64,000 nucleotides of DNA from the NCBI GenBank assembly GCA_903884185.1, contig CAISDV010000171.1:1729-65728 (forward strand), given 5' to 3'. The notes beneath the pieces were generated by a model. It was not told the DNA's origin. It worked only from the letters and a program-made list of their open reading frames with translations, and made no database searches. Shown piece after piece: positions 2,851 through 62,930 of this stretch. Both the position numbers and the translations under genes were made by a program. The stretch comes from an uncultured Chitinophagaceae bacterium. Lineage in GTDB: Bacteria; Bacteroidota; Bacteroidia; Chitinophagales; Chitinophagaceae. Numbering within the stretch: the first letter of the stretch is position 1; each line of letters begins with the position of its first letter.

Positions 2851-3990
2851 TTATAAACGTTGCTTTAATTGTGGTATCATGGCAGCCTTCCATGAAAGGA
2901 AAGTATCTGCCAGGATATATTTGCGGGCCTCACTTACCAGCCAGAGATAAAAAGAAAGGTTGTGTATGCTGGCTATTTGCAAGCCGAGGATCTCATCGGC
3001 AACAAATAAATGCCGCAGGTAAGCTTTGCTATAATAATTGCTTGTTTCGCAAGGGAAACCTTCATCGATCACGGAAATATCGGTTGCCCATTTTTTATTT
3101 CTTATGTTGATGATACCCTGCGAAGTGAAGAGCATTCCGTTTCTTCCATTACGCGTTGGCATCACACAATCAAACATGTCAACACCGAGGCTGATGGCTT
3201 CGAGGATATTCCACGGAGTACCCACTCCCATTAAATAACGCGGTTTATCCGCAGGCAAAATATCACAACACAATTCAGTGAACTCGTACATCATTTCTTC
3301 AGGCTCTCCCACACTCAATCCGCCAATAGCATTGCCCGCAGCGTGTTTGGAGGCAACATATTCAGAAGAAACTGTGCGAAGGTCTTTATAAATGCCGCCC
3401 TGAACAATTGGGAAAAGATTTTGCGTATGGCCATATTTGCCCTCGGTCTCATTCAGCCTTTCTATACATGCGTCCAACCAGCGATGCGTTAACTCCATGC
3501 TTTGCTTTACATATTTGTATTCGCTGGGATGAGGCGGGCATTCATCAAATGCCATAATAATATCGGCACCAATACTTCTTTGAATGTCCATCACTTTCGC
3601 CGGACTGAATAAATGCCTGCTGCCATCAATATGAGATTGAAACATCACACCTTCTTCAGCGATCTTCCTGTTGGCGGACAAAGAAAATACCTGGTAACCG
3701 CCGCTATCGGTGAGTATGGGCCTGTCCCAACCCATGAATTTATGCAGGCCACCACAGGTTTTCAGTACTTCTATACCCGGCCGCAAATAAAGATGATAGG
3801 TATTGCCAAGAATGATCTGCGCTTTTATTTCTTCCTTCAGTTGCTGTTGTGTTACAGCTTTTACGCTACCCACAGTGCCCACAGGCATAAAGATCGGGGT
3901 CAATATCTCGCCATGATCCGTGCTGATCTTGCCCGCCCTTGCTTTCGTATGGGTATTTGTTGATTCTAATTGAAAACTTAATGCTGCCAT
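2851..3990 (-). CDS. tgt: tRNA-guanine transglycosylase (queuine tRNA-ribosyltransferase)
   Basis: Track ORF 2851..4086 trimmed to ATG at 3990 (MAALSFQLESTNTHTKARAGKISTDHGEILTPIFMPVGT); motifs TDSGGYQVFSL, LFPIVQGG, GLSVGEP. The upstream extension crosses a low-complexity repeat. Confidence 0.9.
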   Translation of the reverse strand: MAALSFQLESTNTHTKARAGKISTDHGEILTPIFMPVGTVGSVKAVTQQQLKEEIKAQIILGNTYHLYLRPGIEVLKTCGGLHKFMGWDRPILTDSGGYQVFSLSANRKIAEEGVMFQSHIDGSRHLFSPAKVMDIQRSIGADIIMAFDECPPHPSEYKYVKQSMELTHRWLDACIERLNETEGKYGHTQNLFPIVQGGIYKDLRTVSSEYVASKHAAGNAIGGLSVGEPEEMMYEFTELCCDILPADKPRYLMGVGTPWNILEAISLGVDMFDCVMPTRNGRNGMLFTSQGIINIRNKKWATDISVIDEGFPCETSNYYSKAYLRHLFVADEILGLQIASIHNLSFYLWLVSEARKYILADTFLSWKAAMIPQLKQRL

Positions 3991-8103: not shown

Positions 8104-8140
8104 AGAGGTGCTTTTATAGGGGTCAAATATATTATTCTTT

Positions 8141-8216
8141 TCACCGCAGAGACGCAGAGACAGGGAGAAACGGGGAGATATCTCGGCGAACCTCCCCGTC
8201 TCCCCGCCTCCCCGGT
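8141..8216. repeat. word-hairpin, family a (CACCGCAGAGACGCAGAG / CTCCCCGCCTCCCC type)
   Basis: tcaccgcagagacgcagagacagggagaaacggggag ... cctccccgtctccccgcctccccggt; between the M1 peptidase start and the rsmI stop. Confidence 0.8.
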
Positions 8217-8233
8217 AAAAATTATAAAATCTC

Positions 8234-23783: not shown

Positions 23784-24713
23784 ATGTCAATATTTCAATT
23801 TCCCCGCCAGACACGTTTTTATAGTGGCAAAGTGAGAGATGTTTATTCCATTGGTGAAGAGCTTCTCGTCATGATCGCCAGTAACCGTATCTCTGCATTT
23901 GATGTGATCTTACCACGCCCTATTCCCTTCAAAGGACAAGTACTGAACCAGGTGGCTGCGTATATGTTAGAGGCTACGAGCGATATCTGTCCAAATTGGT
24001 TGTTAAGCACTCCCGCTCCCAATGCTGCCATTGGCAAAAGATGCGAGCCTTTTAAGATTGAAATGGTGGTAAGAGGAAATTTAACCGGCCATGCCTGGAG
24101 AACCTATTCATCAGGCAAAAGAGAATTATGTGGTGCCGCCATGCCGGAAGGAATGAAAGAGAATGATGCTTTCTCCTCACCTATTATTACACCCAGCACC
24201 AAAGCATCTGAAGGGCATGATGAAGATATCAGCAAAGAAGAGATCATTCGCACAGGTTTATGCACTGCGTCCGAATGGGAGATGCTTGAAAAATATGCAC
24301 TGCAATTATTTGCACGCGGAAAAGAGATCGCTGCAAAAAGAGGATTGATACTGGTTGATACAAAATATGAGTTTGGGAAATTGGGCGATGAAATTTATTT
24401 GATGGATGAGATACACACACCCGATTCCTCGCGCTATTTTTATGCTGATGAATTTGCAGAGAGACAAGCTACAGGCGAACGCCAGAAACAATTAAGTAAA
24501 GAGTTTGTACGCGAATGGCTGATCGCAAATGATTTTATGGGCAAGCACGGACAAACCGTTCCAACCATGAGTGATGAATGGGTAGATACCATTTCAAAAA
24601 GATATATTGAATTATACGAACAGGTGACAGGTGAAAAATTTGTTCCGGAAGAATGGAGTGAGGAGAAAACCTATGATGCCGTGATGGGGGCAATAGAAAA
24701 GACCGCTCAATAG
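23784..24713 (+). CDS. purC: phosphoribosylaminoimidazole-succinocarboxamide synthase
   Basis: 309 aa; [37 protein letters not shown] synthetase motifs. Confidence 0.9.
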
Positions 24714-25552
24714 CTTACAGAGATTGAAATGCCCGGTACATCATAAAAACCTGTAAATGATCTCGGTGGTGTTTCATGAATCCACCTGATCTCTTTATAG
24801 TTTAAATAAGTGTAAATTTTTTCCGCATAAGCATTTCCAATTAAATGCGGGAGGTTTTTATCTCCGTTGGCCAAACCCTTTAGCGGTATCAACTCAAATG
24901 AAACAAAAACACCTCCTTCAGGAAATTCTATATTTTTAGACCTAGTAGAAAAGATATTCTTTCGTTTCAGTTGATGGCTTGGCAGAATATTATCTTCAAA
25001 CAAAAGATCTTCACCAGGTAATTGTGTCACCGGGTTTTTATCAAATAGCCTGATCCTTAGTAAGTAGGTTGCTTTCCGGGGGCTTTCGAGTTTAAATCTT
25101 ATATCATCAATATAGCCCTTAACCTTAGTTTCATTAGGGATATAAACAGCATCTTGAATATCAGGTTCCAAAATTTCCCAAAAATTTTCTTTGCCATCAT
25201 CATGCCCCAATAATATTTTTGCTGTTGTGTTCCTTCTTGATCTAACAGAGACTGCATCCAGGCTTGTATATGCTTCTTTTAATTCTACTTGCAATTGATT
25301 GGTCAGTTCAGTGATCACAATCGTTACAGGCTGGTATCCAAGTGCCGAAACCTTGATAGAATCACCGGTAATTTTCTTTATACGGAACACACCAATCGAG
25401 TCGCTATTGTCGCCTATCCTGGAATGATAATAACCAATAGCCGCGAAGGCTATTGGTTTTTGCTTAGCATCTAAAATTCTACCACTCAAGATTGCCTGAG
25501 CAATTAGAATATTAGGTAAAAAGATTAAGATGAGTATAATAAACAATTTCAT
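24707..25552 (-). CDS. secreted CarboxypepD_reg-like domain protein, paralog A
   Basis: 281 aa; signal peptide + [18 protein letters not shown]... domain; tandem paralog of 25632..26477; its stop overlaps the purC stop by 7 nt (convergent). Confidence 0.7.
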
Positions 25553-25631: not shown

Positions 25632-26477
25632 TTAATAGCTTATAGTGATTGATATATTAGGCACACCATATAAATTAGTCATGGGCGACCTTGGATAATC
25701 AACCACCCATTCAATTTCTTTATAATTCAGATACAAGTAAGGCTTTTCGGCATAAGCATTTCCAACTAAACGTGGAATGGTCTTAAAGTCATTGATAAAG
25801 CCCGTCTGTGGTAACAACTCGAATGATACAAAAACACCTTCTTCGGGATATTCAATGTTTTTTGCCCTTATCGAAAAAATATTATTTCGTTTTAGTTGGC
25901 TACTCGGCACAATATTATCCTCAAATAACAGGTCTTCACCTGGAAGCTGATTTTTGGGGTTTTTATAAAATAGTCCGATCCTTAACAAGTAATTGGTCTT
26001 CCTGGGATTTTCCAACTTGAATCCTATTTCATCAATATAGCCACTGATCTTTTTTTCATTAGGTATATAAATTCCTTTTTGAATATTATCCTCCAAATTG
26101 ACTAAAAAATTTTCCCTGCTATTAAGGTGCCCTAATAAGATAGTACCGGTTGTTTTTCTTCTCGATCTTACAGAGACTGCATCCAGGCTTGTATATGCTT
26201 CTTTTAATTCTACTTGCAATTGATTGGTTATTTCAGTGATCCCAATCGTTACAGGCTGGTATCCAAGCGCCGAAACTTTGATAGAATCACCGGCAATTTT
26301 CTTTATATGGAACACACCAATCGAGTCGCTATTGTCGCCTATCCTGGAATGATAATAACCAATAGCCGCGAAGGCTATTGGTTTTTGTTTTGCATCTACA
26401 ATTCTACCACTCAGCAATGTCTGAGCAATTAGAAAACCTGGAAAAGAAAAGAAAATCAGTGCAATAAATCTTATCAT
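25632..26477 (-). CDS. secreted CarboxypepD_reg-like domain protein, paralog B
   Basis: 281 aa, same length and architecture as paralog A. Confidence 0.7.
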   Translation of the reverse strand: MIRFIALIFFSFPGFLIAQTLLSGRIVDAKQKPIAFAAIGYYHSRIGDNSDSIGVFHIKKIAGDSIKVSALGYQPVTIGITEITNQLQVELKEAYTSLDAVSVRSRRKTTGTILLGHLNSRENFLVNLEDNIQKGIYIPNEKKISGYIDEIGFKLENPRKTNYLLRIGLFYKNPKNQLPGEDLLFEDNIVPSSQLKRNNIFSIRAKNIEYPEEGVFVSFELLPQTGFINDFKTIPRLVGNAYAEKPYLYLNYKEIEWVVDYPRSPMTNLYGVPNISITISY

Positions 26478-30694: not shown

Positions 30695-30940
30695 ATGGAC
30701 ATTGCAATTATCCCCATCGGCAATTCAAAAGGAATTCGATTAAACAAGACATTATTAGAGAAATACAATATTACAGATATCGTGGAGCTTATACTTGAAA
30801 AAGAATATATCATTATAAAACCCAAGACTGCAGCAAGAGCCGGTTGGGAAAAATCATTCAGGAAAATGCATGAGAATGGAGATGATAAATTGCTCATGCC
30901 GGATGTATTTGATGACGAAAATTTTGAAGAATGGAGTTAA
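30695..30940 (+). CDS. mazE: AbrB/MazE/SpoVT-family antitoxin
   Basis: Trimmed to ATG at 30695 (MDIAIIPIGNSKGIRLNKTLLEKYNI...); 10-nt overlap with the toxin gene. Confidence 0.75.
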   Translation: MDIAIIPIGNSKGIRLNKTLLEKYNITDIVELILEKEYIIIKPKTAARAGWEKSFRKMHENGDDKLLMPDVFDDENFEEWS

Positions 30941-31254
30941 AACAATACCAGGTTGTTTTGGTTAACCTTGACCCTACTGTTGGAAGTGAAATGAAAAAGA
31001 CACGCCCATGTGTTATTCTCTCACCAGACGAAATGAATAAATATTTACAGACAATTGTTATCGCGCCAATGACGAGTAGTTCGAAATCTTATCCTACAAG
31101 GGTCGAGGTGAGGCATAACAGAACAAAAGGTTGGGTTGTCTTAGACCAGATCAGGACAATTGACAGGCAAAGAATCATTAAAGTAGCTGGTATTCTGACT
31201 GACAAAGAGATAGGTAAAATAAAAGCAATTCTCAGAGAAACCTATGTTGATTAG
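30931..31254 (+). CDS. mazF: PemK/MazF-family endoribonuclease toxin
   Basis: 107 aa; VVLVNLDPTVGSEMKKTRPCVILSPDEMN...IVIAPMTS...LDQIRTID typical MazF. Confidence 0.85.
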   Translation: MELKQYQVVLVNLDPTVGSEMKKTRPCVILSPDEMNKYLQTIVIAPMTSSSKSYPTRVEVRHNRTKGWVVLDQIRTIDRQRIIKVAGILTDKEIGKIKAILRETYVD

Positions 31255-31319: not shown

Positions 31320-31640
31320 ATGTTCAAAATAGTGCGGGTCATCTACACAGCAAAACCTGAGTATGTATCCCACAACAAAGAAAACATTGAAAGAGTGATG
31401 AAGGACCTTCGCGCAGCGAATCATTCCGGCATTAAATACGCTACTTACATACAGGAAGATGGCAAAACATTTATGCACTTCACTCATTTTGAAAATGAAG
31501 AAGCGAGTAAATTACTGAACAGCCTGCCATCATTCAAACAATTCCAGGACGAATTAAAAGCCAATGGGATTGAAGTTCCACCCAAAGCAGATCATTTATC
31601 ATTGGTAGATTCTTCGTATGATATCTTCAATAAATCTTAA
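31320..31640 (+). CDS. hypothetical small protein, possibly ABM/dimeric alpha-beta-barrel-like
   Basis: 106 aa ATG ORF; pattern of a ferredoxin-like small enzyme but no diagnostic motif. Confidence 0.45.
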   Translation: MFKIVRVIYTAKPEYVSHNKENIERVMKDLRAANHSGIKYATYIQEDGKTFMHFTHFENEEASKLLNSLPSFKQFQDELKANGIEVPPKADHLSLVDSSYDIFNKS

Positions 31641-33936
31641 CTGTTGTACTGTTGACATTATTTTCACAAGATTGTTATTTCACCGCGGAGACAGGGAGGC
31701 GGGGAGGTTCGCAGAGTTAAAATTCAGTAAATCAATACTCTGGTTCAAATTATATACAGTTGATGCTTCTTTACACCAGCCCCTCGATATGAGTAAAGTG
31801 GCGTACATTGAAATACTCGACAATAATAACAAACCCGTGATACAGGCCAAGATTGCTTTGAAGAATGGGGATGGCAATGGTTCCTTACCTCTCCCTGTTT
31901 CTATCGGCTCAGGAAAATATAAACTGCGCGCTTATACCAACTGGATGAAGAATTTTGGTGCAGATCATTTCTTTGAAAAAATTATTACTATCGTCAATAC
32001 ACAAAAAGCAAACGAAACTATTTCTTCTCCTAAACCGGATCAGTATGATATCCAGTTCTTCCCAGAGGGAGGTAACCTCGTAAATGGTATCCAGAGCAAA
32101 GTGGCTTTTAAAGCTACAGATCAAACCGGTAAGGGAGTTGCGTTTACAGGCTCCTTGTTAGATGAACAGGATAATGTCATCATTAAATCTTTCCAGCCTC
32201 TCAAATTTGGTATGGGTAATTTTAGTTTTACTCCAACCAGCGGGCATCATTATAAAGCCATAATAGATATCGCAGGAAAAAACAAGATCACGAAAGAATT
32301 GCCTTCTGTATATGCTGAAGGATATGTAATGAAAGTAACTACAGGTCAAAGTATCATTACTGTTACCGTTCAGACAAACATTAGTACAGCTGCCGAATTA
32401 TACCTTTTTGTCAATACTGGTCAGTCGGCTAAGTTCTCCTGGGCTGGCTTTATGCGAAATGGTATAGCGCATTTTTTGATAACAAAAGACAAACTCGGAG
32501 ATGGTATTTCACATTTTACTGTTTTTAACAGCGAACGCCAACCGGTATGTGAACGTTTATATTTTAAAGTTCCACAGGAATACTTGCAGATGTATGCATC
32601 TACTGACAATCCAGGTTATGCTCCAAGAAAAAAAGTAACATTGAACATTCTCGCTGCAACGCAAGCCGGGAAAACAAGCGAAGCAGATATGTCGATGTCT
32701 GTTTACAGATTAGACTCATTACAATCACCAGATGAAAATAATATCAGCAGTTACTTGTGGCTGAATTCAGAACTAGCCGGTACTATTGAATCGCCACAAT
32801 ATTATTTTGATAGTACCAGTATCCCTGAAGCAGCAGATAATCTAATGCTCACGCAAGGATGGAGAAGGTTTCGCTGGGAAGATGTTCTTCAGAATAAAAA
32901 ACCTTCCTTCACTTATGCTCCTGAATACAACGGGCATATCATTACCGGGAAAGTGATCGATACCCGCACAGGCTCCACCGCTGAAAATATAGAGAGTTAT
33001 CTTTCAGTTCCGGGAGTACGGACACAATTCTCACCGTCGCGCAGTGATGCATCCGGACAGGTGAAATTTGAAATGAAAGAAATGTATGGCTCATCTGAGA
33101 TCATTGTACAGACCAATTCGCGTGTCGACAGCTTGTATCGTGTAGACATTGCAAATCCGTTCTTTGAAAGCTATTCATCGCGCAAATTGCCATCGTTTCA
33201 TTTTACTTCGGATAACGCCACAAATTTTCTTACACATAGCATTGGCTCACAGGTACAGAATATTTACCTGGGCGACATGTTACAGCAATTCGGCATTCCT
33301 GCTTTAGATACCAATCCTTTGCAGGTACCTCGCGAATCAAGGTACTTACTGGACAACTATGTTCGCTTTGTTACTTTGGAAGAAGTACTACGCGAATATG
33401 TTTTGTCTGTGAATGTCCGCAAGAGAGAAGATAAATTTCATGTGTTGCTGTACGACCTTGCCAACAAAGTGTATTTTGAAAATGATGGATTGGTATTGCT
33501 GGATGGCGTGCCTGTTTTTGACCAGGACAAATTCATGAAATTCGATCCGTTAAAGATCAGGAAGGTGGAAGTGGTGGATAACAAGTATTTCCTTGGTGGT
33601 AATTATTTTGATGGAATATTAAATTGCTCAACGTACAAAGGAAACCTCGCAGATTTTGAGCTTGACCCGCATGCAACCGTGATAGACTATGATGGGTTAC
33701 AATTGCAAAGAGAATTTTATTCACCTCAATACGCCACAGAACAACAGTTAAACAGCCATCTCCCCGATTTCAGGAATGTGTTGTACTGGTCTCCGAATAT
33801 ACATACCAATACTTTGGGTAAGCAAACTACCAGTTTCTATACTTCCGATGTAAAGGGTAAATATGCAGTTGTATTGCAAGGGATTGCTGCCGATGGAAAA
33901 AGCGGGAGTAATGTGGTTACATTTAATGTGAAGTAA
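31618..33936 (+). CDS. large MG2/alpha-2-macroglobulin-like protein homolog, native 5' end apparently replaced by a repeat (possible pseudogene or neo-N-terminus)
   Basis: 772 aa; family-like sequence starts at ILWFKLYTVDASLHQPLDMSKVAYIEILD...YKLRAYTNWMKNFG; residues 20-36 are translated from a half hairpin repeat (31676-33); no signal peptide; alternative ATG at 31789. Confidence 0.55.
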   Translation: MISSINLNCCTVDIIFTRLLFHRGDREAGRFAELKFSKSILWFKLYTVDASLHQPLDMSKVAYIEILDNNNKPVIQAKIALKNGDGNGSLPLPVSIGSGKYKLRAYTNWMKNFGADHFFEKIITIVNTQKANETISSPKPDQYDIQFFPEGGNLVNGIQSKVAFKATDQTGKGVAFTGSLLDEQDNVIIKSFQPLKFGMGNFSFTPTSGHHYKAIIDIAGKNKITKELPSVYAEGYVMKVTTGQSIITVTVQTNISTAAELYLFVNTGQSAKFSWAGFMRNGIAHFLITKDKLGDGISHFTVFNSERQPVCERLYFKVPQEYLQMYASTDNPGYAPRKKVTLNILAATQAGKTSEADMSMSVYRLDSLQSPDENNISSYLWLNSELAGTIESPQYYFDSTSIPEAADNLMLTQGWRRFRWEDVLQNKKPSFTYAPEYNGHIITGKVIDTRTGSTAENIESYLSVPGVRTQFSPSRSDASGQVKFEMKEMYGSSEIIVQTNSRVDSLYRVDIANPFFESYSSRKLPSFHFTSDNATNFLTHSIGSQVQNIYLGDMLQQFGIPALDTNPLQVPRESRYLLDNYVRFVTLEEVLREYVLSVNVRKREDKFHVLLYDLANKVYFENDGLVLLDGVPVFDQDKFMKFDPLKIRKVEVVDNKYFLGGNYFDGILNCSTYKGNLADFELDPHATVIDYDGLQLQREFYSPQYATEQQLNSHLPDFRNVLYWSPNIHTNTLGKQTTSFYTSDVKGKYAVVLQGIAADGKSGSNVVTFNVK
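31676..31733. repeat. half word-hairpin, family a, inverted orientation
   Basis: tatttcaccgcggagacagggaggcggggaggttcgcagagttaaaattcagtaaatc matches the reverse complement of 39481-39540 at roughly 53 of 57 aligned positions (hand alignment). Confidence 0.8.
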
Positions 33937-33940
33937 AAAT

Positions 33941-34034
33941 TCACCGCAGAGTCGCAGAGACGGGGAGGTCCGCAGAGATAATTAACCATACTAAAGGCAC
34001 TCTGCGAAACTCCCCGCCTCCCTGTCTCCCCGGT
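33941..34034. repeat. word-hairpin, family a, complete
   Basis: tcaccgcagagtcgcagagacggggaggtccgcagag ... ctctgcgaaactccccgcctccctgtctccccggt; starts 5 nt after the stop at 33936. Confidence 0.85.
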
Positions 34035-34042
34035 AAAAAAAA

Positions 34043-36931: not shown

Positions 36932-36994
36932 GCCACAGAAACACAGAGACACAGAGGGTTGAGCCATTCTTCTGTGTTTCTGTGCCTCTGTGGC
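36932..36994. repeat. word-hairpin, family b (GCCACAGAAACACAGAGGCACAG type)
   Basis: gccacagaaacacagagacacagaggg ... ttctgtgtttctgtgcctctgtggc. Confidence 0.85.
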
Positions 36995-37119: not shown

Positions 37120-37503
37120 TTATAAATGCCCTTGCTTAATAAATACTATAATTGGTATTGAAACAATCAATACAACTATATAAATAATCAAAAAAAAATT
37201 CCCCCGTTTAATATCGAGTGGCGAATAATACATTTTCTTTAAATCTGATTTTTTTACAACAAAAGAAAGTATTAAAAAAATTGGAATGCTGCATAAGGCA
37301 ATTATTGCAAAATTTTGGCCTCTAGAATTATCGCTCTTCATAGGTAATAAATTTATTAAATCAAAAAGCACTACAATTTGAAAAAAATGAAGGCACACCA
37401 ACATAAAAAGGGCAATTAATGTACTAACATATGGAATATCCTTAGTAGAACCAGAAGAGTAGTACTTGTAAAGTAAGTAGCTAGCAAATTTTATTGTTTT
37501 CAT
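37120..37503 (-). CDS. hypothetical membrane protein (AT-rich orphan)
   Basis: 127 aa, 3-4 TM helices, very AT-rich codon usage compared with flanking bioF and acylase genes. Confidence 0.5.
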   Translation of the reverse strand: MKTIKFASYLLYKYYSSGSTKDIPYVSTLIALFMLVCLHFFQIVVLFDLINLLPMKSDNSRGQNFAIIALCSIPIFLILSFVVKKSDLKKMYYSPLDIKRGNFFLIIYIVVLIVSIPIIVFIKQGHL

Positions 37504-39426: not shown

Positions 39427-39537
39427 TTACCGCAGAGTCGCAGAGACAGGGAGAAACGCAGAGAGAGCTACTGTTGCCTTAAAGGTTTACTGAATTTAGC
39501 TCTGCGAATCTCCCCGCCTCCCTGTCTCTGCGGTGAA
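39427..39537. repeat. word-hairpin, family a, complete
   Basis: ttaccgcagagtcgcagagacagggagaaacgcagagag ... ctctgcgaatctccccgcctccctgtctctgcggtgaa; between convergent miaE and the GSCFA gene. Confidence 0.85.
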
Positions 39538-39572
39538 ATAACACTTTTATAAACATACTAGTAATATTTTTT

Positions 39573-57167: not shown

Positions 57168-57241
57168 GCCACAGAAACACAGAGGCACAGAAGAGAGAAG
57201 GAATGATTGAACTATTTTCTGTGTTTCTGTGCCTCTGTGGC
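57168..57241. repeat. word-hairpin, family b
   Basis: gccacagaaacacagaggcacagaag ... ttctgtgtttctgtgcctctgtggc; starts 7 nt after the ALDH stop. Confidence 0.85.
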
Positions 57242-59274: not shown

Positions 59275-60984
59275 ATGCACAATTTTATTCCTTCTTTCCG
59301 GCGCCACATCCTTCTTTTCATAACAGTATGGATGCTTTCTTTTTCGTTGGTTACTGCGCAAACCGCTCCCAAAGGCTGGCATTTATTAAGCCCTGCCAAA
59401 GATTCTTTTTTTGGTATCAATCTCGACAAAGCTTATACCTTCTTAAAAAGCAAGGATAAAAAATCAAAACCTGTGATCGTAGCGATAATAGATTCAGGTG
59501 TTGATACCACACATGAGGATTTGAAAGGTGTTTTCTGGCGCAACCCCAAAGAAATACCGGGCAATGGCATTGATGACGACGGCGATGGTTATATAGATGA
59601 TGTATATGGTTGGAATTTTATTGGTGGAAAAGATGGTGCCAACTTTAAAAAATCCGGTGCCGAGAATATGCGGGTGTACAATCGTTTTAAAGAACGGTTT
59701 TTTGGAAAGCCAATTGATACAACCCTGTTGAGCAAAGACGAAAAATATCTTTATAGTACCTGGCTGAGAGCATCAAATGACCTGAACATGAGTAATGAAG
59801 AGCAGATGCAGGTGGCATATCTTGAAGTAACAGGCAAAGCATTGAAACGCCATGATAAAGTGATTCGCGAAGAAATGAGCAAGGAAGAATATACGCCAGA
59901 GCAACTCGAAAAGTTTGAACCCAGGACCAAACAAGGAAGGGAAGCAAAATATGGCTACCTCACTCTTAGCAAAATGCTGGGAATAGAACCCGATGAAAAA
60001 AACTCAAGCACACTCTCACAGATCGATGAATATGTTGAGGGAAAAAAAGAAGCCATGGAGGCAAATGACAAGCCTTATCATGACTACCGTGCTGATATCA
60101 TCCGCGATGATTACAATAATATAAACGATAAATTTTATGGCAATGGCGATGTGATGGGCCCCGGCCCTGTGCATGGCACGCATGTAACAGGTATCATTGC
60201 TGCCAACCGCAATAATGGCATTGGCATGAACGGTGTTGCGGATAATGTACAGATCATGATGATACGCGCAGTGCCCGATGGAGATGAATATGATAAGGAC
60301 ATAGCCCTGGGTATCTTTTTTGCAGTAGACCATGGCGCAAAAGTGATCAACATGAGTTTTGGAAAATATTTTTCGCCTGAGAAGAAATGGGTGGACAGTG
60401 CGATACGTTATGCAGAAATGAAAGATGTGCTCATTGTTCATGCAGCAGGAAATGAATCAACCAATCTTGATGAAAAAGAAGGTTTTCCCAGTCCTTATTT
60501 TTTAAACTCCGGTGGAGAAGCATCTAATTTTATTTCTGTTGGTGCCAGTAGTGACCCATCTATCAATGGCAGCCTGGTGGCCGATTTCAGTAATTATGGA
60601 AAGAAGAGCGTGGATGTATTTGCACCCGGTGTAAAAATATATTCTACTATCCCTCACGGCAACCAGTACAGCAATCTGCAGGGAACCAGTATGGCGGCAC
60701 CCATTGTTAGCGGCGTTGCAGCATTGATACGCTCTTATTTTCCTGATCTGTCTGCACAGCAGGTTATAGAAGCGATCGAAGGGTCTGTTTCCGTTCCTGA
60801 TTCTACCGTGAAAGTGTTAAAGCCTGGTACAAAAGAAGTGGTGCCTTTCAGCAGCCTGAGTAAAAGCGGCGGTATCGTAGATGCCGGTGGTGCGGTGGAA
60901 CTTGCTTATAGAATGCAAGCCGCGAAAAAAAGTAACGATAAGCTACCCAAATCCAGTTTTAAAAACATAAATCCCAACCAATAA
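59275..60984 (+). CDS. S8 family serine peptidase (subtilisin-like), secreted
   Basis: Trimmed from TTG 59269 to ATG 59275; catalytic triad motifs AIIDSGVD, HGTHVTGIIAA, GTSMAAPIVSG. Confidence 0.85.
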   Translation: MHNFIPSFRRHILLFITVWMLSFSLVTAQTAPKGWHLLSPAKDSFFGINLDKAYTFLKSKDKKSKPVIVAIIDSGVDTTHEDLKGVFWRNPKEIPGNGIDDDGDGYIDDVYGWNFIGGKDGANFKKSGAENMRVYNRFKERFFGKPIDTTLLSKDEKYLYSTWLRASNDLNMSNEEQMQVAYLEVTGKALKRHDKVIREEMSKEEYTPEQLEKFEPRTKQGREAKYGYLTLSKMLGIEPDEKNSSTLSQIDEYVEGKKEAMEANDKPYHDYRADIIRDDYNNINDKFYGNGDVMGPGPVHGTHVTGIIAANRNNGIGMNGVADNVQIMMIRAVPDGDEYDKDIALGIFFAVDHGAKVINMSFGKYFSPEKKWVDSAIRYAEMKDVLIVHAAGNESTNLDEKEGFPSPYFLNSGGEASNFISVGASSDPSINGSLVADFSNYGKKSVDVFAPGVKIYSTIPHGNQYSNLQGTSMAAPIVSGVAALIRSYFPDLSAQQVIEAIEGSVSVPDSTVKVLKPGTKEVVPFSSLSKSGGIVDAGGAVELAYRMQAAKKSNDKLPKSSFKNINPNQ

Positions 60985-61493
60985 TGGCAAGGCCCCAACC
61001 CGGAGAATATGCTGAATATTACCAGCGTTATATTGATAAAGCAGAAGGAGCAGATATCAATGCAGTAATGGCAAAATATTCTAACGACCTGAATCATTTC
61101 GTGAATAACCTGCCCGCTTCCAAAGCTGAACACAAGTATGCAGAAGATAAATGGACTGTCAAAGATCTTCTGCAGCATATCATTGATGCCGAAAGGATAT
61201 TCACTTACCGTGCTTTGCGTTTTGCAAGAAAAGATCAAACGCTCCTTCCAGGTTTTGAAGAAAACGATTATGCTGCCAATGCCAATACAAGTGCAAGAAG
61301 TTTGCAGGAACTTAAAGATGAGTTTGTTGCAGTAAGAAAATCAACAGATCTTTTTCTTTCTTCCTTAAATGAGGAACAGTTACAGCAAACGGGAAAGGCA
61401 AATAATCATTCCATTACTGTAAATGCTATTGCGTTTATCATATTCGGTCATATTATTCATCATAAGGGGGTTTTGGAAGAGAGATATTTGTAG
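60984..61493 (+). CDS. DinB family protein
   Basis: 169 aa; DinB_2-like pattern WTVKDLLQHIIDAERIF ... FGHIIHHKG; start overlaps the peptidase stop (TAATG). Confidence 0.8.
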   Translation: MARPQPGEYAEYYQRYIDKAEGADINAVMAKYSNDLNHFVNNLPASKAEHKYAEDKWTVKDLLQHIIDAERIFTYRALRFARKDQTLLPGFEENDYAANANTSARSLQELKDEFVAVRKSTDLFLSSLNEEQLQQTGKANNHSITVNAIAFIIFGHIIHHKGVLEERYL

Positions 61494-61501
61494 TACGTAT
61501 T

Positions 61502-61527
61502 GCCACAGAGGCACAGAAACACAGAGG
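61502..61527. repeat. family b arm, left half of split hairpin
   Basis: gccacagaggcacagaaacacagagg, perfect reverse complement of 62080-62105. Confidence 0.9.
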
Positions 61528-61548
61528 ACATCATTTCGTTTCCAAATA

Positions 61549-62067
61549 ATGAGACAATTTGTAATACTCATTTTGACATTATTTTTTGTCAGTTCTTACG
61601 GACAGACAAAACCTATTATTTTTAAGACGACGGATTTTATTAACGGGAGTTTTTATCGTGATGTTTATGATACAATTCATATGAAGAATGAAAAGATTGA
61701 CATTTATTTTTTAAATGCAATTTTTTTAGAACCACGTCATTTACCGCCCAATTTAATCGATAAAAAATATAAAAATGAAACAATAAAAATCTGGAACGAT
61801 AACGAACATCGACTATGGATAAATACTTATACATATGATAGTTTATCCCGAATAACGGATTTTACATATTCAAGTTGCACGATTTGTTCAAGTATGGCTT
61901 ATGAATATAAAGTCATATATAACTCTGCCGGGCAAGTTGAAAAGATCTACAACATTGGGGTTATGAAAGATAAATACAAATTTTATTACAACAACAAAGG
62001 CAATATTCAGAGGTTGGAAAAATACAATTTCGATGACTTAAATTTAAGGATATCATTGGTTGATTAG
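61549..62067 (+). CDS. hypothetical secreted protein (AT-rich orphan inside split hairpin)
   Basis: Track ORF 61423.. trimmed to ATG 61549 (MRQFVILILTLFFVSSYGQ signal peptide); 172 aa; lies entirely between 26-bp perfect inverted repeats. Confidence 0.55.
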   Translation: MRQFVILILTLFFVSSYGQTKPIIFKTTDFINGSFYRDVYDTIHMKNEKIDIYFLNAIFLEPRHLPPNLIDKKYKNETIKIWNDNEHRLWINTYTYDSLSRITDFTYSSCTICSSMAYEYKVIYNSAGQVEKIYNIGVMKDKYKFYYNNKGNIQRLEKYNFDDLNLRISLVD

Positions 62068-62079
62068 CTGTTTACAATC

Positions 62080-62105
62080 CCTCTGTGTTTCTGTGCCTCT
62101 GTGGC
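62080..62105. repeat. family b arm, right half of split hairpin
   Basis: cctctgtgtttctgtgcctctgtggc; identical to the right arms at 36970-94 and 57217-41. Confidence 0.9.
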
Positions 62106-62111
62106 TAAAAA

Positions 62112-62930
62112 CTAATAATCATACTTATAAAAATCACAAAATTCCTCATCACACAACAATCTTTTATAAACAGGATTCGCAAGCACTTCTGTATAATCCA
62201 TTTCTTTTCCATCCACCCATACTTTTTTATACACCAGCCGGATGCCGTGGCTATAATCTACCCACCAGTTGATATGCCCTATGTATAAAGGTTGTATCGC
62301 TTTGCCATCCAGCTTATGCCATCCGTAAATAGCTTCATGCCCGGGTTTGGGATATCTTGAAACGCCACCGGAGAGCACCACATCTTTTTTTATTCCTGCT
62401 ATCAATCCTTTACGGAGTTTTCTTTGTCCTTCTACTATTAAATGATGCTGCCACATGGTAATGCTGCTGTCGCGGAAAGCATACATTGGCACCGGCTCTA
62501 ATTTTACTACCGCCTGCAGGTAAATATCATCCACCATTTTTCTTGTTGGAAGAAAACAGCCAAATGCATCTGCTATCTTCTGCGCTGCCATTGGTGTCAT
62601 TGGCACCCTGGCCCAGTCATCATTAGTACCAATACTTAAATAATCAGGTGCTACAAAATAATATGCTTTGATGGTCTTTCCAGTTGAAGAATCAACCATA
62701 GAAATATTGATGCGCACAAATTTTTGCAGGAAAGAAGGGATATTGCCCGATAAAATTTCCTTCACTGTCAAAGAATCCCTCTCTTTCCATTTCCAGGCAA
62801 CTGCAGTTTTGAAGAATTGATTACCACCCATTCGTGTGGCAGGTGCTTCGGGCACAGCAAGATGATACGATTTTTGTGCCTCGCCTATATTAAAAGCAAA
62901 CAACAGGCAGAGTGAGAGGATATATTTCAT
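62112..62930 (-). CDS. hypothetical secreted protein
   Basis: 272 aa, signal peptide, normal composition, no domain I can name. Confidence 0.65.
   Translation of the reverse strand: MKYILSLCLLFAFNIGEAQKSYHLAVPEAPATRMGGNQFFKTAVAWKWKERDSLTVKEILSGNIPSFLQKFVRINISMVDSSTGKTIKAYYFVAPDYLSIGTNDDWARVPMTPMAAQKIADAFGCFLPTRKMVDDIYLQAVVKLEPVPMYAFRDSSITMWQHHLIVEGQRKLRKGLIAGIKKDVVLSGGVSRYPKPGHEAIYGWHKLDGKAIQPLYIGHINWWVDYSHGIRLVYKKVWVDGKEMDYTEVLANPVYKRLLCDEEFCDFYKYDY

What the first reader, a model, noticed from the sequence alone, without database searches (positions are those of the whole stretch)
61502..62105. Perfect 26-bp hairpin arms split by a 552-bp AT-rich segment carrying an orphan ORF
gccacagaggcacagaaacacagagg (61502-61527) is the exact reverse complement of cctctgtgtttctgtgcctctgtggc (62080-62105). 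Elsewhere in the window the same family-b arms are separated by only about 12-25 nt (36932-36994, 57168-57241) and sit right after stop codons. Here the left arm begins 9 nt after the DinB stop, and the right arm ends 7 nt before the stop of the convergent gene 62112..62930. That is where a shared post-gene hairpin would be expected. The 552 bp between the arms contain one complete signal-peptide ORF (61549..62067) of visibly lower GC, with long A/T runs. This looks like a gene-sized cassette that landed in, or was captured by, the loop of a hairpin element. Unlike the intact copies, whose arms carry 4 non-Watson-Crick positions, this split copy has perfectly complementary arms.
Basis: partly seen in the sequence, partly recalled or inferred. 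Interest (0 to 1): 0.7.

Follow-up and report, generated by a model that had tools for sequence, protein, structure and literature searches.

The report
Gene sitting inside a palindromic repeat element
Two perfect 26-base inverted copies of a repeat that normally forms a small hairpin after genes here enclose a real, foreign-looking gene for a small secreted protein, so this is one case of a gene gained between the arms of a REP/MITE-like repeat, not a new kind of system.

Summary
Arms 61502-61527 and 62080-62105 are 26/26 complementary and 552 nt apart, and they enclose one ORF (61549-62067). A second metagenome assembly shows both junctions with identical sequence.

Twelve syntenic relatives have DinB and the 272-aa gene stop-to-stop (2 nt apart in the two closest). 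None has the ORF or the arms, so the whole arm-ORF-arm block is a lineage-specific insertion.

The ORF is not an orphan. A full HMMER scan finds 119 related cluster representatives. AlphaFold gives pLDDT 93, with a weak resemblance to Rhs/YD repeats.

The arms are three CACAGARR octamers. They belong to a hairpin repeat that is expanded in this genome and absent from about 0.9 Mb of relatives' loci. A related form is widespread in high-GC viral contigs, typically about 11 nt after a stop codon, with spacers of 14-124 nt. At least five other copies hold one small ORF between the arms.

Compact copies in this window pair a left-type arm with a right-type arm, one octamer out of phase. The split copy has two right-type arms, which explains its perfect complementarity.

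Best reading: a foreign gene captured between the arms of a resident REP-dimer/MITE-like element. I could not resolve the order of events or identify the enzyme that moves the repeat.

The parts
60984..61493 (+). Left flank: DinB_2-family gene, the last gene of the S8-peptidase/DinB pair
   Evidence: Pfam DinB_2 E 2.5e-17. In 12 relatives it converges directly on the 272-aa gene.
61494..61501 (.). 8 nt (TACGTATT) between the DinB stop and the left arm. All three family-b sites have TT directly before the arm.
   Evidence: The two closest relatives have only 2 nt between the two stop codons.
61502..61527 (+). Left arm GCCACAGAGGCACAGAAACACAGAGG: three octamers of the 'right-type' series (AGG, AAA, AGG), in flipped orientation
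61528..61548 (+). 21-nt spacer between the left arm and the ATG. There is no Bacteroidetes -7 box (TAnnTTTG) within 250 nt upstream.
61549..62067 (+). Cargo gene: 172-aa secreted protein with a signal peptide ending SYG|Q, invariant P66, C110xxC113, and a YD-repeat-like beta-hairpin fold
   Evidence: 119 related cluster representatives; alignment A1; AF2 pLDDT 93; weak Foldseek hits to Rhs/teneurin shells; no Pfam or PHROG match.
62068..62079 (+). 12-nt spacer between the ORF stop and the right arm
62080..62105 (-). Right arm, the exact reverse complement of the left arm. As at 36994, it is followed by TAAAA.
62112..62930 (-). Right flank: convergent 272-aa conserved hypothetical gene, with no Pfam match
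36932..36994 (.). Compact family-b copy: left-type arm, 11-nt spacer, right-type arm, 22/26 complementary
57168..57241 (.). Compact family-b copy starting 6 nt after the aldehyde dehydrogenase stop; 21/26 complementary, 22-nt spacer

Best explanation
The 604-bp block is a copy of a resident palindromic repeat that behaves like a REP dimer or MITE. Its constant part is a pair of inverted arms, each made of three CACAGARR octamers. Its variable spacer here holds a horizontally acquired gene instead of the usual 11-25 nt.

The repeat has expanded in this Chitinophagaceae lineage and normally sits just after stop codons. At the DinB/272-aa-gene junction, ancestrally stop-to-stop, DNA carrying a gene for a small secreted YD-repeat-like protein became enclosed by two arms of the same type.

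Shown:
- The block is an insertion relative to relatives.
- The arms are the resident type.
- The gene is real and has atypical composition.
- Spacer length in the family is free, and other copies hold ORFs.

Inferred:
- The gene was captured between the arms (DNA inserted between dimer partners, for example after breakage at the hairpin tip) rather than imported with them.
- With no promoter of its own, the gene is read through from the S8-DinB transcript.
- On that RNA the arms close a 26-bp perfect stem around the cistron. The stem could end or process transcripts from both convergent genes.

The enzyme that spreads the repeat is not in the window and remains unknown.
For: - **Insertion.** Twelve syntenic relatives have DinB and the 272-aa gene adjacent, without the ORF or arms.
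- **Resident arms.** The window has 14 octamer arms in 64 kb; there are no convincing matches (only a few 2-mismatch hits) in about 0.9 Mb of relatives' loci. The AAA-containing subtype is absent from IMG/VR. The split arms match the right arms of the two local compact copies in their first two octamers.
- **Foreign-looking interior.** GC z is -3.6.
- **Real gene.**
- **Free spacer.** In 59 arm pairs the gap runs 14-124 nt, with a tail at 214, 556 and (mis-paired) 839.
- **Other ORFs between arms.** L094, L124, L082, L227 and L228.
- **Post-stop position.** 35 of 58 compact copies lie within 15 nt after a stop codon, against 10% for random positions. The two split arms keep that spacing from both stops.
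- **RNA fold.** The 26-bp stem closes the ORF in both the MFE and the centroid structure.
- **Literature.** PMC3733652 states that DNA gets inserted between REP dimer partners, and that homodimers and heterodimers coexist.
Against: - No intermediate allele (compact hairpin or empty site) was found in the same species. The nearest relatives are at or below 80% identity.
- All five compact copies in the window are heterotypic. A pre-existing homotypic perfect hairpin at this site would have been atypical here.
- There is no clear target-site duplication and no remnant of an old loop. Only a weak ACATC/ACAATC similarity exists at the inner ends.
- The viral-contig family has high GC (median 0.63), so its homology to the window's family rests on a 26-nt simple motif.
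- Transcription, processing and mobility are all untested.
Confidence: 0.5

Rival explanations
1. Arm-bounded cassette moving as one unit, like a mobile insertion cassette. The two identical arms are terminal inverted repeats. A trans-acting transposase, the one that spreads the compact copies, moved arms plus gene together into the 2-nt gap between the two stop codons from another site in this or a closely related genome.
For: - The arms are perfect and homotypic, unlike the five heterotypic compact copies.
- The whole block is absent from relatives.
- The outer ends are the same as in a compact copy: TT before and TAAAA after.
- MICs with passenger genes are known (knowledge; papers listed).
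Against: - No second copy of the unit is known. ORF172's best relative is 48% identical.
- There is no target-site duplication.
- No transposase was found among 25 window proteins scanned with Pfam or in the precomputed Pfam labels of the neighbouring genes.
- ORF172 relatives elsewhere are not arm-bounded: L056, L060, L222 and L223.
Confidence: 0.25
2. Two unrelated half-elements. The gene arrived on its own, and two separate solo or truncated arms came to lie on either side of it by chance.
For: - Solo arms exist. The family-a arm at 31675-31717 is solo or truncated.
- About 20% of strict arms in viral loci have no partner within 2 kb.
Against: - The two arms are identical at all 26 positions, including the variable R positions.
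- They face each other and keep canonical spacing from both stops.
- They bracket exactly one ORF.
- Both arms and the ORF are missing in all relatives.
Confidence: 0.08
3. The arrangement is kept for an RNA-level function. The long-range 26-bp stem brackets the cistron so that a double-strand-specific RNase excises it, or so that translation is limited. This would resemble rRNA or T7 intercistronic processing stems. It could hold alongside any DNA-level origin.
For: - The stem forms in the MFE and centroid structures.
- In phage copies the purine arm ends in GGAGG, 7-8 nt before the loop ORF's ATG, so pairing would hide the ribosome-binding site.
- PMC3733652 notes that REP homodimer and heterodimer hairpins may differ in RNase sensitivity.
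Against: - There are no expression data.
- Bacteroidetes do not rely on Shine-Dalgarno pairing (knowledge), and here the ATG is 21 nt from the arm.
- It is a single case in this genome.
- Mismatches in compact copies are symmetric (A.C and G.U on both strands), so there is no strand-specific RNA signature.
Confidence: 0.1
4. Invertible segment. A recombinase flips the 552 bp between the inverted repeats, placing the ORF downstream of one or the other convergent gene.
For: Perfect inverted repeats flank a promoter-less ORF that sits between two convergent genes.
Against: - The window contig and the two scaffolds of the second sample (L047, L221) all show the same orientation at their junctions.
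- No invertase or integrase was found near the element.
- The arms are an ordinary dispersed repeat.
Confidence: 0.03

Closest known systems
REP dimers / BIMEs / REPINs (mobilised by RAYT Y1 transposases)
   Same: - Short extragenic inverted-repeat pairs that form a hairpin.
- Many copies per genome, and lineage-specific expansion.
- Position just after genes.
- Variable spacers of 20-100 bp.
- Homo- and heterodimers.
- DNA sometimes inserted between partners (PMC3733652, PMC3116915).
   Different: - Each arm is a run of three octamers, not itself a palindrome.
- There is no GTAG or CGTC tag.
- No RAYT gene was seen.
- The spacer here is a whole gene.
- The motif is not in the REP list of PMC6006769.
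MITEs and mobile insertion cassettes (MICs, e.g. MIC231 of Bacillus cereus)
   Same: - Terminal inverted repeats of about 26 bp.
- No transposase inside.
- A size of about 0.6 kb.
- A passenger gene between the repeats.
- Absence from orthologous sites.
   Different: - No target-site duplication.
- No parent IS with the same ends.
- No second copy of the unit.
- The compact copies have unrelated spacers, unlike copy-paste MITE families.
Integron gene cassettes with attC hairpins
   Same: - Imperfect hairpin sites of variable length placed directly after ORFs.
- A gene associated with a hairpin.
   Different: - No RYYYAAC/GTTRRRY core sites, no integrase and no array.
- The gene lies inside the hairpin rather than beside it.
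Correia elements of Neisseria and intercistronic RNase III hairpins of phage T7
   Same: Transcribed inverted repeats near gene ends that fold into long stems, which can be cut or can end transcripts (knowledge).
   Different: Those hairpins are compact. A stem enclosing a full cistron resembles rRNA processing stems more closely. Nothing has been tested here.
PeSL promoter-stem-loop cassettes of T4-type phages
   Same: Repeated stem-loop sequences at gene boundaries that bracket small accessory ORFs in phage genomes (knowledge).
   Different: PeSLs are direct repeats that act through recombination and mini-circles. Here the repeats are inverted.

Membership tests
MITE / mobile insertion cassette | Terminal inverted repeats bounding a short element without a transposase | tested here: met
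   26/26 inverted repeat. The only ORF inside is a secreted YD-like protein.
MITE / mobile insertion cassette | Target-site duplication flanking the element | tested here: inconclusive
   The flanks are TACGTATT and TAAAAA. The empty sites in L003 and L006 have only 2 nt. No direct repeat is evident.
MITE / mobile insertion cassette | Several copies with the same ends in one genome, and absence from orthologous sites | tested here: met
   Three family-b sites in 64 kb. None was found in relatives.
MITE / mobile insertion cassette | An autonomous IS or transposase with the same ends | not testable with these tools
   Only 64 kb of the genome is available. No transposase was found among the window proteins scanned or in the neighbours' annotations.
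REP / REPIN-RAYT | High-copy extragenic palindromic units arranged as inverted pairs that form a hairpin | tested here: met
REP / REPIN-RAYT | Conserved 5' GTAG (or CGTC) tag at the foot, and each unit itself a stem-loop | tested here: not met
   The arms are GCCACAGARR octamer runs with no internal palindrome and no conserved tag.
REP / REPIN-RAYT | A single-copy RAYT gene flanked by the repeats | not testable with these tools
   The rest of the genome is not available. PMC6006769 reports Bacteroidetes TnpA_REP subclass 2.6 with atypical structures, but its tables hold no CACAGAG.
Integron cassette / attC | attC core sites plus a nearby integrase and a cassette array | tested here: not met
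   No core sites in the arms. Neighbours are housekeeping genes.
Invertible DNA switch | Both orientations present in the population, and a site-specific recombinase nearby | tested here: not met
   Same orientation in the window contig and in the two scaffolds of the second sample. No recombinase was found. No read-level data were available.
Intrinsic terminator | GC-rich stem with a short loop, followed by a T run | tested here: not met
   0 terminator-like sites in 60900-62300. The arms are followed by TAAAAA, not by a T run.
Rfam RNA families | Match at the gathering score to any curated family | tested here: not met
   No hit in the window. The only hit in 12 viral loci with hairpins is a tRNA.

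The most novel reading that the evidence does not exclude
The (CACAGAGR)n hairpins are an undescribed cross-phylum class of post-stop-codon palindromic elements. Their loop would act as a socket for single genes. Arms conserved from a 41%-GC Chitinophagaceae chromosome to 50-70%-GC phage contigs would let genes be captured, and possibly exchanged, between arm pairs. The purine arm would supply a ribosome-binding site, and the closing stem would control or process the enclosed cistron. That would make it a hairpin-bounded gene cassette system without an integrase.
Probability: 0.12. Interest if true: 0.8.

Novelty: new variant of a known kind. Interest (0 to 1): 0.48.

Why it matters
It gives a clean, dated example of gene gain in a bacterial chromosome. 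A real secreted-protein gene sits exactly between the arms of a dispersed palindromic repeat, at a junction where relatives have no spacer at all.

If the recurrence seen in phage contigs holds up, REP/MITE-like hairpins would be entry points or carriers for small accessory genes as well as genome litter or terminators. The repeat family is not in Rfam and was not found in the literature searched, so it may deserve a description of its own.

Tried and rejected
- **Close relatives.** The genome-contig scan with the 272-aa protein, the metagenome scan with DinB and the protein search found only the same population (99-100%) or relatives at or below 80%. No intermediate allele is available.
- **Orphan status.** The word-index search found only the query itself, which would have supported 'orphan'. 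The exhaustive HMMER scan overturned this.
- **Are ORF172-family genes generally bracketed by inverted repeats?** One of the homolog contexts checked for flanking repeats has a 14-nt bracket (L048). L056, L060, L222 and L223 have none. Rejected as a family property.
- **Mobile context for the cargo.** ORF172 has no homolog in the phage or plasmid collections.
- **Second 'split' pair, 31675-31717 / 33999-34041.** This is a solo arm plus a complete hairpin, not a second clean case.
- **Relatives of the L124 phage.** I looked for a compact hairpin at the site of its loop ORF. The phages are too mosaic and lack both the arms and the neighbouring genes.
- **Window-specific arm subtypes in IMG/VR.** No hits.
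- **A viral hairpin against GenBank phages.** No match.
- **Literature search with the arm sequences.** Nothing found.
- **Promoter search.** The sigma-70 scan was at background. There is no Bacteroidetes -7 box upstream of the ORF.
- **Technical failures.** Alignment A1 was too diverse for the search for related loci. Two adjacent variable gaps were not accepted in a pattern.

Full report
**1. The observation**

The sequence shows GCCACAGAGGCACAGAAACACAGAGG at 61502-61527 and its exact reverse complement at 62080-62105, with 552 nt between them. With up to 3 mismatches the 26-mer occurs five times in the window and never in 100 shuffles. The other four occurrences form two compact hairpins, at 36932-36994 and 57168-57241.

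The left arm starts 8 nt after the stop of a DinB_2-family gene (60984-61493). The right arm ends 6 nt before the stop of a convergent 272-aa gene (62112-62930). The interior holds one complete ORF, 61549-62067. Its GC is 0.285, against 0.409 +/- 0.039 for 54 window genes (z -3.6), and its GC3 is 0.30 (z -1.8).

The structure is not an assembly artefact. Two scaffolds from another ENA sample carry DinB/left arm/ORF 5' half and ORF 3' half/right arm/272-aa gene. They are identical to the window and overlap each other by 19 nt inside the ORF.

**2. It is an insertion**

A scan of species-representative genomes with the 272-aa protein places the window in freshwater or soil Chitinophagaceae; the best hit is 79% identical. 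Eight of those loci and four metagenome loci keep the order S8 peptidase - DinB -> <- 272-aa gene. None has the ORF or the arms.

In the two closest relatives the two stop codons are 2 nt apart. In the others the gap is about 6-230 nt of unrelated sequence. No relative between 80% and 99% identity exists in any collection I could search. An allele with a compact hairpin, or with the ORF alone, therefore could not be looked for.

**3. The cargo is a real gene, not an orphan**

The word-index protein search found only the query itself. The exhaustive HMMER scan of 1.84 billion cluster representatives found 119 relatives at E <= 1e-3 and 77 at E <= 1e-10. Most are full-length proteins of 170-190 aa, up to 48% identical.

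The alignment shows a signal peptide, invariant P66, C110xxC113, Y124 and Y147, and a TYTYDSLSR motif. AlphaFold2 with this alignment gives pLDDT 93.2 and pTM 0.83, an almost all-beta fold. Foldseek finds only weak partial matches to Rhs/teneurin YD shells (best E 5.6e-3, TM 0.33). One relative carries a weak PF25023 TEN_YD-shell label. There is no Pfam or PHROG match.

Relatives sit in unrelated contexts: after mnmA, next to ppk, between a TPR gene and an HNH gene, and inside a DUF5655-X-AIPR block. None was found in the phage or plasmid collections. The family is a sporadic accessory gene for a small secreted protein of unknown function.

**4. What the arms are**

Each arm is three CACAGARR octamers after a GC. 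The window holds 14 octamer-type arms at 7 sites:
- Family b at 36932, 57168 and the split copy.
- Family a at 8129-8230, 33939-34041 and 39428-39539, plus a solo arm at 31675-31717.

About 0.9 Mb of loci from related Chitinophagaceae and DinB-bearing contigs holds no convincing arm. The repeats have therefore expanded in this lineage, which points to a spreading element rather than a general terminator design.

A degenerate arm pattern hits at least 80 IMG/VR contigs, which is the output cap. There the consensus is (A)CCACAGAGRCACAGAGRCACAGAG - spacer - CTCTGTGYCTCTGTGYCTCTGTGG(T). Spacers run continuously from 14 to 124 nt and often carry their own GC palindrome. They are similar within a contig but not between contigs. 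Those contigs have a median GC of 0.63, so they come from quite different hosts, and the link to the window's family rests on the arm motif and the placement.

Of 58 compact copies, 35 lie within 15 nt after the stop codon of an ORF of at least 90 aa that points at them (median 11 nt). The figure for random positions is 10%. No Rfam family matches, no paper in the library contains the arm sequences, and the REP tables of PMC6006769 lack the motif.

**5. Why the split copy is perfect**

Aligning the six family-b arms shows two types:
- Left arms read (AAA, AGR, ARG).
- Right arms, reverse-complemented, read (AGG, AAA, AAR). This is the same alternating series shifted by one octamer.

A compact copy pairs one type with the other, which produces its 4-5 A/G mismatches. 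Both arms of the split copy are right-type (AGG, AAA, AGG), so they are identical. Family a behaves the same way, and its solo arm at 31675-31717 is also a right-type arm in flipped orientation.

In the REP literature this corresponds to heterodimers and homodimers, and the same paper notes that DNA gets inserted between dimer partners (PMC3733652). In the wider family, perfect compact copies do exist (26/26 in L085, L114, L116 and L120). Perfection is therefore not a hallmark of split copies. All five compact copies in the window have the same orientation on the + strand, whatever the gene direction. With n = 5 this is only a hint of strand-specific spread.

**6. ORFs between arms recur**

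Cases found in viral contigs:
- **L094:** left arm, 7 nt, a 60-aa CxxC..CxxC ORF, 17 nt, right arm.
- **L124:** after an endolysin gene, a left arm, a 57-aa membrane ORF and a degenerate right arm.
- **L082:** a pyrimidine arm, a 96-aa ORF and a purine arm, each arm abutting a start codon.
- **L227 and L228:** a gap-constrained scan (152-211 nt) of all of IMG/VR found five new split pairs. These two hold ORFs of 51 and about 60 aa that start 7-8 nt after an arm-derived GGAGG or AAGGAG.

The cargo ORFs are unrelated to each other and unannotated.

Solo arms are also common. Of 138 evaluable strict arms, 96 are in compact pairs, 9 pair at 131-2000 nt, 6 have a weak partner and 27 have none. In the window, the family-a solo arm is followed by only 6-7 nt of its partner before an apparently 5'-truncated 772-aa ORF, which suggests a deletion at the hairpin.

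**7. How it most likely works**

The arms are the resident subtype. The AAA-containing arm and the family-a right arm are absent from IMG/VR and from relatives. The interior is compositionally foreign. I therefore favour capture of foreign DNA between the arms of a resident element over import of a ready-made unit (confidence 0.5). Movement of the arm-bounded unit from elsewhere in the same lineage is the main rival (0.25).

Two independent half-elements are unlikely (0.08). The arms agree at all variable positions, face each other, keep canonical spacing from both stops and enclose exactly one ORF. An invertible switch is unsupported (0.03), because the window contig and both scaffolds of the second sample show the same orientation and no recombinase is nearby.

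The ORF has no sigma-70-like promoter above background and no Bacteroidetes -7 box within 250 nt, so it probably depends on read-through from S8-DinB. On such an RNA the 26-bp stem closes the whole cistron in both the MFE and the centroid structure (z -6.5). It might terminate or process transcripts. That step is inference only.

**8. Comparison with known systems and verdict**

The element works like a REP dimer/REPIN or MITE whose spacer carries a passenger gene, the closest analogue being a mobile insertion cassette. It fails defining features of each:
- **REPs:** no GTAG/CGTC tag, no palindromic unit, and no RAYT seen.
- **MITE/MIC:** no target-site duplication and no parent IS.
- **Integron cassettes:** no core sites or integrase, and the gene is inside rather than beside the hairpin.

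The block is real and inserted, and its arms are those of a hairpin element. However, the ORF is not an orphan, the perfect arms have a simple explanation, and the order of events is unknown.

I rate it a new variant of a known kind and of moderate interest. The repeat family itself, and its habit of enclosing single small genes in phage contigs, is the part most worth following up.

Noticed in passing
window 31675-31717 (with 31618-33936): A solo family-a arm of the right type, in flipped orientation, is followed after 19 nt by only ACTCTGG of a partner arm. The sequence then runs straight into a 772-aa ORF that seems to lack its N-terminal signal region. This looks like a deletion that removed half a hairpin and the gene's 5' end.
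   Followed up: partly
window 39428-39539: A third compact family-a hairpin lies between the MiaE gene and a convergent GSCFA-family gene.
   Followed up: partly
window 8129-8230, 33939-34041, 36932-36994, 39428-39539, 57168-57241: All five compact hairpins have the left-type arm first on the + strand, whatever the direction of the neighbouring genes. This could reflect spread tied to the replication strand, but n = 5.
   Followed up: partly
window 24707-25552 and 25632-26477: Two tandem 281-aa paralogues (CarboxypepD_reg-like) each carry the identical 33-nt sequence AATAACCAATAGCCGCGAAGGCTATTGGTTTTT (25429-25461 and 26354-26386), which contains an internal palindrome. The two copies sit inside the 5' parts of the two ORFs as called, about 92-124 nt from their starts.
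   Followed up: no
window 37120-37503: This is the lowest-GC gene of the window (0.268): 127 aa, membrane-like, no Pfam match. It lies 126 nt from compact hairpin b1. It is another small foreign-looking gene next to a family-b element.
   Followed up: no
window 30931-31254: A PemK/MazF-type toxin gene (E 1.3e-30), with a small upstream ORF as the likely antitoxin, lies just before the region with the solo arm.
   Followed up: partly
L048 2985-2998 / 3532-3545 (also L049-L055): A marine homologue of ORF172 is bracketed by a 14-nt inverted repeat (GTTGGGCACAATTA / TAACTGTGCCCAAC, 13/14) that hugs its ATG and stop. It lies in a DUF5655 - X - AIPR block whose upstream neighbours differ between contigs. 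Other palindromic repeats flank it.
   Followed up: partly
L124 3628-3640 and 3882-3893: The 10-11-nt direct repeat (G)ACTTTCCATG occurs at the start of the loop ORF and again at the start of the next gene after the right arm. This would fit insertion or duplication at a microhomology.
   Followed up: no
L065 5767-6094: Three left arms in tandem at 120-nt spacing are followed by a single right arm.
   Followed up: no
L229 4410-4615: The spacer of a CACAGAG hairpin contains a nested hairpin built from a different octamer (CACGAAGG / CTTCGTG). This suggests related octamer families that insert into each other.
   Followed up: no
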